From NCBI GenBank assembly GCA_046485135.1, contig JAWOHN010000044.1:14231-78230 (forward strand): 64,000 bases of DNA. The letters run 5' to 3'. The number at the start of each line of letters is the position of its first letter. Position 1 is the stretch's first letter. The notes under the pieces were generated by a model. The model was not told the DNA's origin. It made no database searches and worked only from the letters and a program-made list of their open reading frames with translations. Below are positions 2 through 4,665 of this stretch, in pieces. Made by a program: the position numbers and the translations under genes. The DNA is from Anaerolineales bacterium (GTDB lineage: Bacteria > Chloroflexota > Anaerolineae > Anaerolineales > UBA4823).

Positions 2-1894
2 CACCACCCGAACCCACTTCTACCAGAGACGCGCTCCGAGCTTGGAATCCCGTTAAAGATCGGTCCGCGCGTCATCGGTGCTCTTAACGTTCAATCAAAC
101 AGACTTAACGGGTTCATGCCCGAAGACACCTCCGTGCTACAAACCCTGGCCGATCAAATTACAGTGGCAGTTGACAATGCTCGTTCTTATGAGATTGCCC
201 AACAGGCAATTGAGGAATCACGCCAGAGAGTACAGGAGCTGAGTGTCCTGTTCAATACCAGCCAGTCTCTTGCCAGCGCGACCATGGAGTCTCAAGAAAT
301 TGCCAATATTATCGCCCGCCGTTTCTTAGAAGTCTTCAAACTACCTAAATGCACCATTTCGATGATTGAGCCGGAAAACGGAGAGCTGTGGACCATTTTT
401 AGCCTGGCACGTGGGAAAAATGGCGCATACCAGGAAATGTACGCCACAGGAGAAGCAGGCAAGGTATCACCCTTGAATGGATATGCAGAGGTACAACAGG
501 TGATCGATGGGTTGACGCCATTGATTGTAAGGGTTGACGATACTGACACCAACCCTGCCACCCAGGCCTATATGCAGCAAATCAGCGCCAGTCTGCTCGT
601 GCTGCTACCTTTGGCTGTGAAAGGACAGGCCATTGGCACCATCACTTTGGAAGCCTGGGATGAGCAAGCCAGTTTCAACCTGACACAGACCACCCTGGCT
701 GTTACCCTGGCTAACGCAGCCGCGGCTGCGTTAGAAAACGCGCGCCTCTACGAAGTGCAGCTCAGCACGTCGGAAAAACTGCGCGAAGTTGATAAGCTAA
801 AATCGCAATTCCTGGCAAATATGTCCCATGAATTACGCACGCCGCTGAACTCGATCATCGGCTTCTCCAGGGTGATTCTAAAAGGTATCGACGGACCCAT
901 TAGTGAATTGCAACAGCAGGATTTGAATGCTATTTATTCTGCCGGACAACATTTACTCAACCTGATCAATGACATTCTGGATATTTCCAAGATCGAAGCC
1001 GGCAAAATGGAGTTGGCCTTTATTGATGATGTTAACCTGGCAGATTTGATCAACAGCGTTCTTTCGACCGCGGTGGGATTGGTCAAAGATAAACCCATTC
1101 GTCTGGAACAAATTATCCCACCTGATTTACCTAACGTGCGCGCTGATCCCACCCGCCTGCGCCAGGTTATCCTAAATCTGCTGTCAAACGCTGCCAAATT
1201 TACTGAACGGGGCAGCATCACCATTGAAACTGGCATCCAATCAGCGCAACCCGGGCAGAGCGAGATCATCATCAAGGTTACCGACACCGGCATTGGCATC
1301 TCGCTGGAACACCAGAGGAATCTATTCCAACCCTTCACTCAGGTGGACGGCTCTGCCACCCGAAAAACTGGCGGCAGCGGTTTGGGTTTATCGATCTCTC
1401 GCCTGTTGGTGGAAATCCACGGTGGGAAAATTGGTGTTGAGAGCACCGAAGGAAAAGGCAGCTGTTTTTACTTTACCCTGCCATTAGGGCCCCGGATGGA
1501 GGCCCCCCAATTGGATCCTGGCAGCCGGACGATCCTGGCAGTGGAGGGAGAATGGCAGGTACTGTACTTGTATGACCGCTATTTGAGCGAGCACGACTAC
1601 ACTATCGTGCCCGTCTCTGTGCCAGCAGAAGCTGTGCAGCGGGCCCGAGATGTACAGCCTCAAGCCATTTTGCTGGATGTCTTACTTCCAGGCGCCAGTG
1701 GTTGGAAAATTCTTGAAGATCTCAAGAATGACCCCAGCACTCGTCACATTCCCATCATTGTCTGTAGTTTACTCGACGAGCGAGAAAAGGCCTTAAGCCT
1801 AGGAGCCACCGATTATCTGCTCAAACCGATCCTGGAAGAAGATCTCATCAGTAGTTTGCAACGCCTGGAACGTAGTCCTGAACGGCAAGCATAG
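2..1894 (+). CDS. Hybrid sensor histidine kinase (GAF-GAF-HisKA-HATPase_c-REC), 5' end cut by the window edge
   Basis: The frame is open from nt 2 ([33 protein letters not shown] reads as the end of a GAF domain), so Met116 in the ORF track is internal. H-box [15 protein letters not shown]; G-boxes DTGIGI and [9 protein letters not shown]; C-terminal receiver (LLDVLLP...LLKP). Confidence 0.85.
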   Translation, partial: [630 protein letters not shown]

Positions 1895-1967
1895 ACTGCC
1901 AGAATACCAGAATAACGAATAGCCGGATTCAGGCAATTCCGGGATGAATCCAATTTATTAGGTACCT

Positions 1968-3671: not shown

Positions 3672-3672
3672 T

Positions 3673-4665
3673 ATGGAAGAAATCTCAGAGCGGTTATCAG
3701 AGCGCAACATAGAAACAAGCCAGAGAACGCAGACAAAAGGTATCCACGCTGCGCTTGCATCTGCGCTTTTCTTGGGCTTCACCCCGGTTTTTGGGAAGCT
3801 GGCTATTCAGTATGGCTTGCCCCCCCTGACGGTAGTCGCTCTGCGGACCTTATTTGCTGCCAGTTTACTATTCATCCTGGTACTGGTTCTGAATCGCTCA
3901 TATCTATATATCTATCCAGCGGGATTGATTGGTTGTCTGTTAGCAGGGGGAATCAACGGCATTGGATCGATCTTCTTTTACGTTTCGTTAGGCAGGATCG
4001 ACGCAAGTCTGGGCCAAATCATCTTTTCACTTTACCCGCTCTTTGTGGCGGTGTGGTTGTGGTTAGACCGGCAGCCGCCCAGCCGGTTGACGATCATCCG
4101 CCTGCTGCTGGTAATCCCTGCTCTGCTTTTATTAACACACACCAGCCAGGCCAAGATCGATTTGCTAGGGGTCGTATTTATGCTGGTAGCCGGGGCAATG
4201 TACGCGCTGCACCTGCCAATCAACCAGCGGGTGCTCTACGAAATGCCAGCCCCCACCGTAACTTTTTATACCTTACTGGCAATGAGCCTGGTGGTTGTTC
4301 CAACCCTGTTTTTCAGTGGACTGTCAACCCCCGTCGCCAATCAGGCCTGGTGGGCGCTGGGCGGGCTGACATTGGTAACTTTCATCTCCCGGCTGACCTT
4401 GTTTTTAGGGGTTAAGCACTTGGGTGGAATGCAAACAGCTATGTTGGGATTGACTGAATTGTTGATCACTATCTCGTTTTCTCATATATTGCTTCATGAG
4501 CGACTCAACCTGTACCAATGGATGGGTCTGGGACTGTTGGCTTTCATTCTATTTCTGGTGCGATATGAAAAACCAGCGCCCACTCGTACAGGAGCTGGTG
4601 GATGGTTAAGTTGGTTGGTTCCACCGCAAATACCATCAAAATTTCCCTGGCAACCACATGACTAA
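3673..4665 (+). CDS. EamA/DMT-family (drug/metabolite exporter) membrane protein
   Basis: About 10 hydrophobic helices arranged as two EamA-like halves. ATG 3673 lies 1 nt after the upstream stop; the track start 3643 is a TTG that overlaps the previous gene. Confidence 0.7.
   Translation: MEEISERLSERNIETSQRTQTKGIHAALASALFLGFTPVFGKLAIQYGLPPLTVVALRTLFAASLLFILVLVLNRSYLYIYPAGLIGCLLAGGINGIGSIFFYVSLGRIDASLGQIIFSLYPLFVAVWLWLDRQPPSRLTIIRLLLVIPALLLLTHTSQAKIDLLGVVFMLVAGAMYALHLPINQRVLYEMPAPTVTFYTLLAMSLVVVPTLFFSGLSTPVANQAWWALGGLTLVTFISRLTLFLGVKHLGGMQTAMLGLTELLITISFSHILLHERLNLYQWMGLGLLAFILFLVRYEKPAPTRTGAGGWLSWLVPPQIPSKFPWQPHD

What the first reader, a model, noticed from the sequence alone, without database searches (positions are those of the whole stretch)
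2..4665. Threonine-synthase-like enzyme fused to a receiver domain, between a hybrid kinase and a DMT exporter
The 567-aa product of 1968-3671 is a complete ThrC-type PLP enzyme with a Zn-ribbon and the SFKDRQA lysine motif.
- **Fused receiver:** its last ~120 aa (about nt 3310-3668) form a receiver domain with all phospho-acceptor residues present.
- **Upstream:** a GAF/HisKA/HATPase/REC hybrid kinase ends 73 nt before it.
- **Downstream:** an EamA/DMT transporter starts 1 nt after its stop. This family includes the threonine/homoserine exporter RhtA.

A metabolic PLP enzyme as the direct output of a phosphorelay, coupled to an exporter, is not a textbook arrangement. It suggests signal-gated synthesis and export of an amino-acid-like product.
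Basis: partly seen in the sequence, partly recalled or inferred. Interest (0 to 1): 0.6.

Follow-up and report, generated by a model that had tools for sequence, protein, structure and literature searches.

The report
Threonine-synthase-like enzyme fused to receiver domain
A sensor kinase, a threonine-synthase-family vitamin-B6 enzyme carrying its own phospho-receiver switch, and a membrane transporter form a three-gene unit kept together across Anaerolineae bacteria, which suggests that an environmental signal directly switches an amino-acid enzyme rather than a gene.

Summary
ORF 1968-3671 encodes a Zn-ribbon, ThrC-type PLP domain with a complete C-terminal receiver.

**Not an artefact.** It is one uninterrupted ORF in 78 of the 80 fetched Anaerolineae genomes; the other two are cut by contig ends. 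More than 120 protein clusters show the same two domains.

**Synteny test passes.**
- A multi-GAF hybrid histidine kinase lies directly upstream in 76 of 76 informative loci.
- An EamA transporter lies directly downstream in 72 of 72.
- A sister Anaerolineae group keeps the same trio in the two contexts examined.
- A third lineage keeps kinase plus enzyme-receiver(s) but has single receivers and a GNAT acetyltransferase instead of EamA.
- One lineage without kinase and EamA has a decayed receiver but an intact enzyme.

**Chemistry is unresolved.**
- The protein misses NCBI's threonine-synthase cut-offs, although a sister-group fused protein passes one.
- Its active-site motifs differ from both bacterial and archaeal threonine synthases.
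- ThrC homologues include MetM and cysteate synthase.
- I could not test whether these genomes hold another thrC.

No HPt domain was found, so "phosphorelay" is unproven.

I found no published description. I rate it a new variant of enzymatic response regulators.

The parts
2..1894 (+). C-terminal 630 aa of a large multi-GAF hybrid histidine kinase (HK1). It runs off the window start. Features: GAF, HisKA (about nt 800-1003, H-box SHELRTP), HATPase_c (about nt 1145-1489), own receiver (about nt 1532-1858).
   Evidence: Pfam. Orthologues of 850-2300 aa lie directly upstream on the same strand in 76 of 76 loci. The DHp helix is at least 90% invariant in 70 orthologues. This copy's receiver has E-G in place of the D-D acidic pair.
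1895..1979 (+). Short intergenic spacer with Shine-Dalgarno GGAGG at 1970-1974. No terminator-like site lies between HK1 and the enzyme gene.
   Evidence: Sequence. The terminator scan lists no site in 1895-1979.
1968..3671 (+). ThrC-like PLP enzyme fused to a C-terminal receiver (567 aa from GTG 1968; more likely 563 aa from TTG 1980).
   Evidence: An uninterrupted ORF in 78 of 80 genomes; the other two are cut by contig ends.
1992..2078 (+). N-terminal four-cysteine Zn-ribbon (C13, C16, C29, C32).
   Evidence: The cysteines are invariant in 80 of 80. Weak DUF7129 match. The same N-terminal module occurs in archaeal-type threonine synthases (A4 consensus).
2196..3170 (+). PALP (fold-type II PLP) domain. 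Schiff-base lysine K115 is at nt 2310-2312. Motifs STGNV (138-142), (D/E)xGxRS (206-211) and SGGxGP (261-266).
   Evidence: Pfam, 187 bits. Best solved relatives are threonine synthases 2zsj, 1uim, 2d1f and 6cgq. Motif conservation.
2658..2720 (+). Variable surface insertion of about 20 aa (residues 231-251). It splits the ThrC HMM matches in two.
   Evidence: Only 28% mean identity among orthologues, against 69-78% for the flanking PALP parts. pLDDT is below 50 at 240-245. Absent from sister clades.
3183..3305 (+). Linker with a conserved short helix (PEEGLLAAL, residues 430-438).
   Evidence: E432, G433, L434 and A437 are invariant in 82 sequences. pLDDT is low at 403-432.
3306..3668 (+). 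Receiver (REC) domain. Phospho-acceptor D498 is at nt 3459-3461. Other key residues are D453, D454, T528 and K550.
   Evidence: Pfam, 74.5 bits. Mapping to CheY and RR468. Conservation. Closest solved receivers are RR468 and the first receiver of PleD.
3673..4665 (+). EamA/DMT transporter, 330 aa, with two EamA repeats. Its start lies 1 nt after the enzyme's stop codon.
   Evidence: Pfam, 105 bits in 2 stretches. Sequence. An orthologue lies directly downstream in 72 of 72 loci.
4773..7490 (-). Second sensor kinase (HK2): three GAF domains, HisKA and HATPase_c, no receiver. It converges on the EamA gene.
   Evidence: Pfam. Similar minus-strand kinases lie downstream in about half of the 80 loci. 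Whether it belongs to the module is unproven.

Best explanation
This is a conserved signalling-metabolic operon of the class Anaerolineae.

1. A large sensor kinase (GAF-rich; with dCache and HAMP in full-length orthologues) autophosphorylates.
2. It transfers the phosphate to D498 of the receiver fused to the C-terminus of a Zn-ribbon (archaeal-type) threonine-synthase-family PLP enzyme.
3. Receiver phosphorylation acts as an allosteric switch on the enzyme. The analogy is S-adenosylmethionine switching plant threonine synthase.
4. The translationally coupled EamA/DMT transporter moves the amino-acid product out, or the substrate in.

The enzyme most likely still carries out ThrC-type chemistry on a phosphorylated hydroxy-amino acid, and O-phosphohomoserine to threonine is the single most likely reaction.

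**Shown:** the architecture, conservation of the catalytic and phospho-acceptor residues, a single origin of the fusion on an unbootstrapped tree, and obligate gene linkage.

**Inferred:** the phosphotransfer partner, the direction of the allosteric effect, the substrate and product, and the direction of transport.
For: **The fusion is real**
- 120 of 120 listed clusters carry PALP plus Response_reg.
- The ORF is intact in 78 of the 80 fetched genomes.

**Linkage**
- Kinase adjacent upstream in 76 of 76 loci and EamA adjacent downstream in 72 of 72.
- The trio recurs in the two sister-group contexts examined, L089 and L090.
- A third lineage keeps kinase plus PALP-REC(-REC).

**The receiver looks functional**
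- D453, D454, D498, T528 and K550 are near-invariant.
- Receiver identity among orthologues is 65-68%.
- The kinase's DHp helix is at least 90% invariant.

**A natural loss experiment**
- The P0122 lineage (L084) shares the downstream argF, aminotransferase and pyruvate kinase genes with the window.
- It lacks both the kinase and EamA.
- Its receiver has decayed: Pfam 27 bits against a cut-off of 30, with the acidic pair displaced.

**The enzyme is probably active and ThrC-like**
- K115 and the PLP motifs are invariant.
- The N-terminal half of the PALP domain is 78% identical among orthologues, as conserved as argF and rocD at 75%.
- The best sequence and fold matches are all threonine synthases.
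- The sister-group fused protein tested (P0322) passes TIGR00260 with 180.9 against 167.1, and several proteins of that group are named threonine synthase in NCBI records.
- The next relatives are archaeal threonine synthases, including those of Methanocaldococcus and Methanotorris.

**Operon**
- No terminator-like site was found between the three genes. The gaps are 73-85 nt and 1 nt.
Against: **The chemistry is doubtful**
- The window protein fails every NCBIfam ThrC cut-off.
- The class-I ThrC motifs STGN-T, N-S-x-N-P-x-R and GNAGN are conserved in five solved enzymes. Here they read STGN-V, (D/E)xGxRS and SGGxGP.
- The motifs also differ from the archaeal-type consensus.
- The nearest unfused sister (P0135) sits in a cluster with a radical-SAM/SPASM protein, a TauE permease and an Fe-ADH. 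That context looks like specialised chemistry.
- A receiver-less clade nested inside the fused clade occurs on cyanobacterial-type contigs. Cyanobacteria generally carry a canonical thrC (my own knowledge, not tested on these contigs), so it may be an accessory paralogue.
- ThrC homologues are known to be MetM or cysteate synthase and are often mis-annotated (9k3c).

**Signalling is unproven**
- No HPt domain was found, and phosphotransfer is untested.
- AlphaFold2 models the receiver's last 38 residues and the linker poorly, so there is no structural clue to how the receiver reaches the active site.
- I could not determine whether these genomes have a second thrC.
Confidence: 0.5

Rival explanations
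1. The regulatory module is the same, but the PLP domain has changed function. It would be a different beta/gamma-replacement or elimination enzyme that makes a non-proteinogenic or secreted amino acid. Candidates include a MetM-like, cysteate-synthase-like, phospho-lyase or threonine-deaminase activity. The EamA transporter (or, in the other lineage, the GNAT acetyltransferase) would then export or modify the product.
For: - The protein scores below all ThrC equivalog cut-offs.
- Active-site motifs differ from both bacterial and archaeal ThrC.
- The sister P0135 lies in a radical-SAM/SPASM, TauE and Fe-ADH cluster.
- The partner gene alternates between an exporter and a GNAT, both typical ways of handling a product.
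- ThrC homologues with other reactions are documented: MetM, cysteate synthase CapA2 9k3c, and the Microcystis enzyme with deaminase activity.
Against: - No ThiS/MetO-like gene appears in the annotated contexts.
- Cysteate synthase TIGR03844 scores 93 bits against a cut-off of 325.
- The sister-group fused protein tested and an unfused relative pass ThrC equivalogs.
- Conservation is class-wide and at housekeeping level.
- The enzyme persists without its partners next to argF, rocD and pyk.
Confidence: 0.33
2. Information flows the other way. The PLP domain would be a metabolite sensor that binds an amino acid or O-phosphohomoserine. It would tune the phosphorylation or dephosphorylation of its receiver, so that the protein acts as a metabolically gated phosphate sink or branch for the kinase network.
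For: - The locus is a dense signalling hub with several kinases and receivers.
- The third lineage carries extra single-domain receivers next to the fusion.
- The receiver is C-terminal, as in hybrid kinases.
- No HPt domain was found.
Against: - The catalytic lysine and PLP-binding motifs are strictly conserved.
- The tight coupling to a transporter argues for flux of a small molecule.
- The enzyme survives intact where the receiver has decayed.
Confidence: 0.08
3. The receiver is never phosphorylated. It would be a structural or oligomerisation appendage (pseudo-receiver), and the adjacency to the kinase would be incidental.
For: - The Pfam match covers only positions 2-89 of 111.
- AlphaFold2 does not model a canonical alpha4-beta5-alpha5 region.
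- KG replaces the usual KP after the conserved lysine.
Against: - All five phospho-chemistry residues are conserved in 77-80 of 80 species.
- The receiver aligns end to end with RR468.
- The kinase is adjacent in 76 of 76 loci.
- The receiver decays exactly where the kinase is absent.
Confidence: 0.06
4. The fusion is a frameshift or assembly artefact that joins two separate genes.
For: None found.
Against: - The same single ORF occurs in 78 of 80 independent genomes, including the isolate Thermanaerothrix solaris.
- It also occurs in more than 120 protein clusters from JGI, NCBI, ENA and Logan.
- The linker contains a conserved helix.
Confidence: 0.01

Closest known systems
Class-I bacterial threonine synthase (Aquifex 2ZSJ, Thermus 1UIM/1V7C, M. 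tuberculosis 2D1F, B. subtilis 6CGQ)
   Same: - Fold-type II PLP fold, with TM-score about 0.8 normalised to the target.
- SFKDR lysine motif and S-T-G-N loop.
- About 30% identity, with E-values from 1e-33 to 1e-45.
   Different: - These enzymes have no Zn-ribbon and no receiver.
- The residues I recall as binding the substrate phosphate in Thermus ThrC are all replaced here: T88, N154, S155, R160 and N188. That residue list is from memory of Omi et al. 2003 and was not checked in a paper. The motif differences themselves are shown.
Archaeal-type (Zn-ribbon) threonine synthase, NCBIfam PRK08197 (for example Methanocaldococcus, Methanotorris, Bathyarchaeia)
   Same: - N-terminal four-cysteine ribbon plus PALP.
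- Best-scoring NCBIfam model, at 244 bits.
- 35-40% identity.
   Different: - The window protein is below the cut-off of 303.
- Its PLP-phosphate loop (SGGxGP against GxG) and its (D/E)xGxRS loop (against NPYxxEG) differ.
- It has a 20-aa insertion.
- The archaeal enzymes have no receiver.
Plant threonine synthase (Arabidopsis 1E5X/2C2B), allosterically activated by S-adenosylmethionine
   Same: A ThrC catalytic core with an appended regulatory element that switches activity. It is a structural match.
   Different: The plant regulator is an N-terminal extension that binds a small molecule. Here it is a C-terminal phospho-receiver driven by a kinase.
Response regulators with enzymatic outputs (CheB methylesterase, PleD diguanylate cyclase, RpfG HD-GYP)
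   Same: A receiver covalently fused to an enzyme so that phosphorylation gates catalysis. This receiver is most similar to the first receiver of PleD and to RR468.
   Different: - The known outputs act on signalling molecules or on proteins, and the receiver is N-terminal.
- Here the output is a primary-metabolism-type PLP enzyme, and the receiver is C-terminal.
MetM, the MetO-thiocarboxylate-dependent homocysteine synthase (Streptomyces albulus; Microcystis 'unique ThrC')
   Same: A ThrC homologue that uses O-phosphohomoserine and is often annotated as threonine synthase.
   Different: - MetM is encoded next to a ThiS-like MetO, and none is seen in these loci.
- No MetM sequence was available for a direct comparison.
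Cysteate synthase (TIGR03844; CapA2 of Alistipes finegoldii, 9K3C)
   Same: A ThrC-derived enzyme. It is a structural match over 447 columns with the lowest rmsd in the list, 3.7 A.
   Different: Only 20% identity. phmmer E-value is 5e-7, and TIGR03844 scores 93 bits against a cut-off of 325.
RhtA / EamA (DMT) amino-acid exporters of E. coli
   Same: A DMT protein with two EamA repeats.
   Different: The resemblance is at family level only. TIGR00950 scores 48 bits against 230, there is no solved homologue, and substrate and direction are unknown.

Membership tests
Threonine synthase (EC 4.2.3.1; NCBIfam TIGR00260 / PRK08197 equivalogs) | Score at or above the curated equivalog cut-off | tested here: not met
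   TIGR00260 scores 138.6 against 167.1. PRK08197 scores 244.4 against 303. Relatives pass: P0322 scores 180.9 on TIGR00260, and P0286 scores 308.8 on PRK08197 and 173.9 on TIGR00260.
Threonine synthase (EC 4.2.3.1; NCBIfam TIGR00260 / PRK08197 equivalogs) | PLP Schiff-base lysine in the S-F-K-D-R motif, and a fold-type II PALP domain | tested here: met
   K115 is invariant in 80 of 80. PALP scores 187 bits. The top fold matches are threonine synthases.
Threonine synthase (EC 4.2.3.1; NCBIfam TIGR00260 / PRK08197 equivalogs) | Class-I substrate and cofactor motifs STGN-T, N-S-x-N-P-x-R-x-EGQKT and GNAGN | tested here: not met
   The motifs here read STGNV, (D/E)xGxRS..S.E.MKT and SGGxGP. Archaeal-type ThrCs also lack the class-I motifs, so this alone does not exclude ThrC activity.
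Threonine synthase (EC 4.2.3.1; NCBIfam TIGR00260 / PRK08197 equivalogs) | Converts O-phosphohomoserine to threonine, and is the genome's thrC | not testable with these tools
   Whole genomes could not be scanned. No second ThrC lies within +/-10 kb in the 80 loci or in the window.
Response-regulator receiver domain (PF00072) | Pfam gathering score, and alignment over the whole (beta-alpha)5 domain | tested here: met
   74.5 bits against 30.2, although only profile positions 2-89 are covered. phmmer aligns the receiver with residues 5-120 of the 122-residue RR468. AlphaFold2 has low confidence for residues 530-567.
Response-regulator receiver domain (PF00072) | Acidic pair, phospho-acceptor Asp, Thr/Ser and Lys (CheY D12, D13, D57, T87, K109) | tested here: met
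   D453, D454, D498, T528 and K550. They are conserved in 77-80 of 80 orthologues.
Response-regulator receiver domain (PF00072) | Phosphorylated by a cognate histidine kinase | not testable with these tools
   Only adjacency is shown: 76 of 76 loci.
Multi-step phosphorelay (hybrid kinase, then HPt, then terminal receiver) | An HPt domain or protein linking the hybrid kinase's receiver to the terminal receiver | tested here: not met
   There is no Hpt hit in the C-terminal 630 aa of HK1, nor in the gene lists of L081, L089 and L090. The domain lists for the giant kinases are truncated, so an N-terminal HPt cannot be strictly excluded.
Multi-step phosphorelay (hybrid kinase, then HPt, then terminal receiver) | A functional receiver in the hybrid kinase | tested here: inconclusive
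   D, S and K are present, but the acidic pair is E-G in this window. It is D-D in 63-65 of 70 orthologues.
EamA/DMT transporter | Two EamA repeats in a protein of about 300 aa | tested here: met
   PF00892, 105 bits in 2 stretches.
RhtA-type threonine/homoserine exporter | Orthology to RhtA, or demonstrated threonine export | not tested
   The only hit is the general TIGR00950 model at 48 bits against 230. No RhtA comparison was run.
MetM (homocysteine synthase) | An adjacent MetO (ThiS-like sulfur carrier) gene | tested here: not met
   No ThiS-family gene is present in L081, L089 or L090.
Cysteate synthase (TIGR03844) | Equivalog cut-off | tested here: not met
   92.6 bits against 324.9.

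The most novel reading that the evidence does not exclude
Across the whole class Anaerolineae, a two-component kinase would directly phospho-gate a primary-metabolic PLP enzyme, and a coupled exporter would release its amino-acid product. Release of threonine or a related amino acid would then be a signal-controlled act, serving cross-feeding, a public good or intercellular signalling in these filamentous, consortium-dwelling bacteria. That would make it a post-translational metabolic output of two-component signalling with no described precedent.
Probability: 0.3. Interest if true: 0.8.

Novelty: new variant of a known kind. Interest (0 to 1): 0.62.

Why it matters
- Two-component systems are taught as controllers of transcription, motility or second messengers. 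A receiver wired directly to an amino-acid-pathway PLP enzyme would add direct, fast control of metabolic flux to that list.
- The trio was found at every informative locus examined in an abundant but poorly studied bacterial class (sludge, sediments, hot springs), where it is fixed next to a transporter.
- The system is simple to test: one enzyme, one aspartate, one kinase.
- It also warns annotators. The protein is called "threonine synthase" by JGI and "pyridoxal-phosphate dependent enzyme" in NCBI records, and neither name reflects the receiver or the uncertain chemistry.

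Tried and rejected
1. **A second thrC.** I looked for a canonical thrC in the same genomes. tblastn of Thermus ThrC against the window and 80 loci found only the fused gene. The last protein search returned archaeal ThrCs and no Anaerolineae.
2. **Literature.** Searches for ThrC-receiver fusions or Anaerolineae threonine metabolism found nothing relevant. Papers on the ThrC active site were not held. 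Hasebe 2024 on MetM was not held.
3. **Naming distant relatives.** Cluster names for these proteins were empty.
4. **AlphaFold database.** The afdb50 fold library was not available.
5. **"Missing phosphate-binding residues" as an argument.** I considered this as proof that the protein is not a ThrC. I rejected it as decisive because archaeal-type ThrCs also lack the class-I motifs.
6. **Microcystis enzyme.** I considered the "unique ThrC" of Microcystis as the nearest characterised homologue. I rejected this because that enzyme is MetM-like and lies next to metO, and no Microcystis name appeared among relatives of P0286.
7. **RNA elements.** The Rfam and tRNA scans of the window were empty. 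The promoter and terminator scan was no better than shuffled sequence.
8. **EamA against solved structures.** No hit.

Full report
**1. Observation**

The ORF at 1968-3671 (+) is real.
- Pfam places a full PALP domain at residues 77-401 (187 bits). It places a Response_reg domain at 450-540 (74.5 bits against a cut-off of 30.2).
- The N-terminal four-cysteine ribbon, the SFKDRQ lysine K115 and the PLP-loop motifs are invariant in 80 orthologues.
- The receiver's D453, D454, D498, T528 and A529 map to CheY D12, D13, D57, T87 and A88.
- K550 aligns with K105 of T. maritima RR468 in an end-to-end alignment.
- These residues are conserved in 77-80 of 80 species.
- The upstream frame (2-1894) carries GAF, HisKA, HATPase and REC. 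The downstream gene (ATG 3673, 1 nt after the stop) is a two-repeat EamA protein.
- The likely true start is TTG 1980, behind GGAGG at 1970-1974. This matches the 563-aa JGI protein P0001.
- No terminator-like site separates the three genes.

**2. The fusion is not an artefact**

- All 120 listed homologue clusters (68-100% identity, 543-590 aa) carry both domains.
- The best 80 are Anaerolineae MAGs plus the isolate Thermanaerothrix solaris.
- The ORF is uninterrupted in 78 of the 80. The other two are cut by contig ends.

**3. Synteny**

I compared the window's proteins by BLASTP with the ORFs of the 80 loci.
- A same-strand multi-GAF hybrid kinase lies directly upstream in 76 of 76 loci with enough sequence.
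- An EamA orthologue lies directly downstream in 72 of 72.

Mean identities to the window:

| Gene or region | Mean identity |
|---|---|
| PALP, N-terminal half | 78% |
| Receiver | 65% |
| EamA | 55% |
| HK1 | 48% |
| argF and rocD (nearby housekeeping genes) | 75% |

- The kinase's DHp helix ([29 protein letters not shown]) is at least 90% invariant.
- Pfam-annotated contexts show that the full-length kinase carries dCache, HAMP and many GAF domains. They also show that the locus is a signalling hub.

**4. Wider family**

- A search of 1.8 billion representatives and an unbootstrapped NJ tree put all receiver-fused forms in one clade. The members are:
  - Anaerolineales (this window).
  - A group of about 548 aa from Aggregatilineales, Phototrophicales and other Anaerolineae. 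Two contexts from this group were examined, and both include a kinase and EamA.
  - A lineage with one or two fused receivers. It is preceded by a giant GAF/PAS kinase and followed by single receivers and a GNAT acetyltransferase instead of EamA.
- A receiver-less clade on cyanobacterial-type contigs is nested inside the fused clade, which implies loss of the receiver.
- One lineage (P0122, locus L084) shares the window's downstream genes argF, aminotransferase and pyruvate kinase. It lacks both the kinase and EamA, and its receiver has decayed while the PALP domain persists.
- This co-loss is the best evidence available here that kinase, receiver and transporter work together. It also suggests that the enzyme has a kinase-independent role.

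**5. What the enzyme does**

*For threonine synthase*
- All best sequence and fold matches are ThrCs.
- The sister-group fused protein P0322 and the unfused P0286 pass NCBI's ThrC equivalogs.
- The next relatives are the Zn-ribbon ThrCs of archaea, including autotrophic methanogens.
- Conservation is at housekeeping level.

*Against*
- The window protein and its Anaerolineales orthologue P0024 fall below every ThrC cut-off.
- Three active-site motifs differ from class-I ThrCs.
- They also differ from the archaeal-type consensus.
- The nearest unfused sister sits with a radical-SAM/SPASM protein and a TauE permease.
- ThrC homologues are documented as MetM, as cysteate synthase (9K3C), and as a bifunctional, MetM-like enzyme in Microcystis.
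- MetM is disfavoured because no MetO gene lies nearby.
- Cysteate synthase is disfavoured because TIGR03844 scores 93 against 325.
- I could not determine whether a second thrC exists in these genomes (one search covers only +/-10 kb).

My estimates are about 40-45% for genuine threonine synthase and about 35-45% for a derived reaction. A non-catalytic role is unlikely.

**6. Mechanism**

- The most economical reading is direct or branched phosphotransfer from the adjacent kinase to D498.
- This would allosterically switch a normally dimeric ThrC-type enzyme. SAM activation of plant ThrC is a precedent for regulating this fold.
- The transporter would move the product or the substrate.
- No HPt domain was found, so a relay is unproven.
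- In this genome the kinase's own receiver lacks the acidic pair. That would favour direct transfer here.
- AlphaFold2 gives a confident PALP core. Confidence is low for the linker and for the receiver's C-terminal third, so no inter-domain geometry can be claimed.

**7. Novelty**

- Receivers fused to enzymes are known (CheB, PleD, RpfG).
- I found no report of a PLP or amino-acid-pathway enzyme as the output.
- I therefore class it as a new variant of a known kind. It is well supported as an architecture and a conserved operon, with its biochemistry open.

Noticed in passing
window 1532-1858 (receiver of HK1): This genome's hybrid-kinase receiver reads ILAVEGEWQ. Of 70 orthologues, 63-65 have D-D(-D) at these positions. 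The acidic Mg-binding pair is therefore lost here, while D, S and K remain. It may be a pseudo-receiver in this lineage.
   Followed up: partly
window 1968-1982: GTG 1968 overlaps the only good Shine-Dalgarno sequence (GGAGG, 1970-1974). TTG 1980, 5 nt downstream of it, matches the 563-aa JGI gene call and is the likelier start.
   Followed up: yes
window 2658-2720 (residues 231-251): A hypervariable, proline-rich insertion of about 20 aa is specific to the Anaerolineales branch and its degenerate-receiver sister P0122. It splits the ThrC HMM matches and lowers their scores.
   Followed up: partly
L084 (P0273, P0122 cluster) 8001-13462: This relative has a decayed receiver and no adjacent kinase or EamA. 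It sits directly upstream of argF, a class-III aminotransferase and pyruvate kinase, the same genes found at window 7715-13845.
   Followed up: yes
L083, L086, L087, L088: In another Chloroflexota-like lineage the enzyme carries one or two receivers. It is followed by one or two single-domain receivers and a GNAT acetyltransferase rather than a transporter.
   Followed up: partly
P0168 cluster (candidate division NC10); P0196: Other Zn-ribbon ThrC-like enzymes carry different appended domains. One has a C-terminal LeuA allosteric/dimerisation domain (619 aa, named threonine synthase in NCBI records). Another has an N-terminal inositol-monophosphatase domain (718 aa). This enzyme family seems prone to acquiring regulatory or partner domains.
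   Followed up: no
L093 2091-6140: The unfused sister enzyme P0135 overlaps a radical-SAM/SPASM gene. A TauE-family permease and an Fe-alcohol dehydrogenase follow. This may be a small biosynthetic cluster for a modified or sulfonated amino acid.
   Followed up: no
L082, L091, L092: Receiver-less members nested in the fused clade lie on cyanobacterial-type contigs (phycobilisome linker, DUF2301, DUF561). In two of them a sodium:dicarboxylate-symporter-family transporter and an amino-acid-binding protein converge on the gene. This suggests horizontal transfer with loss of the receiver.
   Followed up: partly
L063 (DYLS01000027.1): This contig is labelled as a Blastopirellula marina MAG but carries the full Anaerolineae-type trio with 66% identity. 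It is probably mis-binned or mislabelled.
   Followed up: no
L081 1-9949: Upstream of the trio in a 3-Mb contig lie two dCache-HAMP-GAF proteins without kinase domains, a MASE11-GAF protein and a ParA/MinD-like ATPase. The kinase and its receiver are there separate genes (868 aa and 272 aa).
   Followed up: no
window 13898-15238 (-) and 15312-17657 (+): Two large ORFs (447 and 782 aa) have no Pfam match at E <= 1e-5.
   Followed up: no
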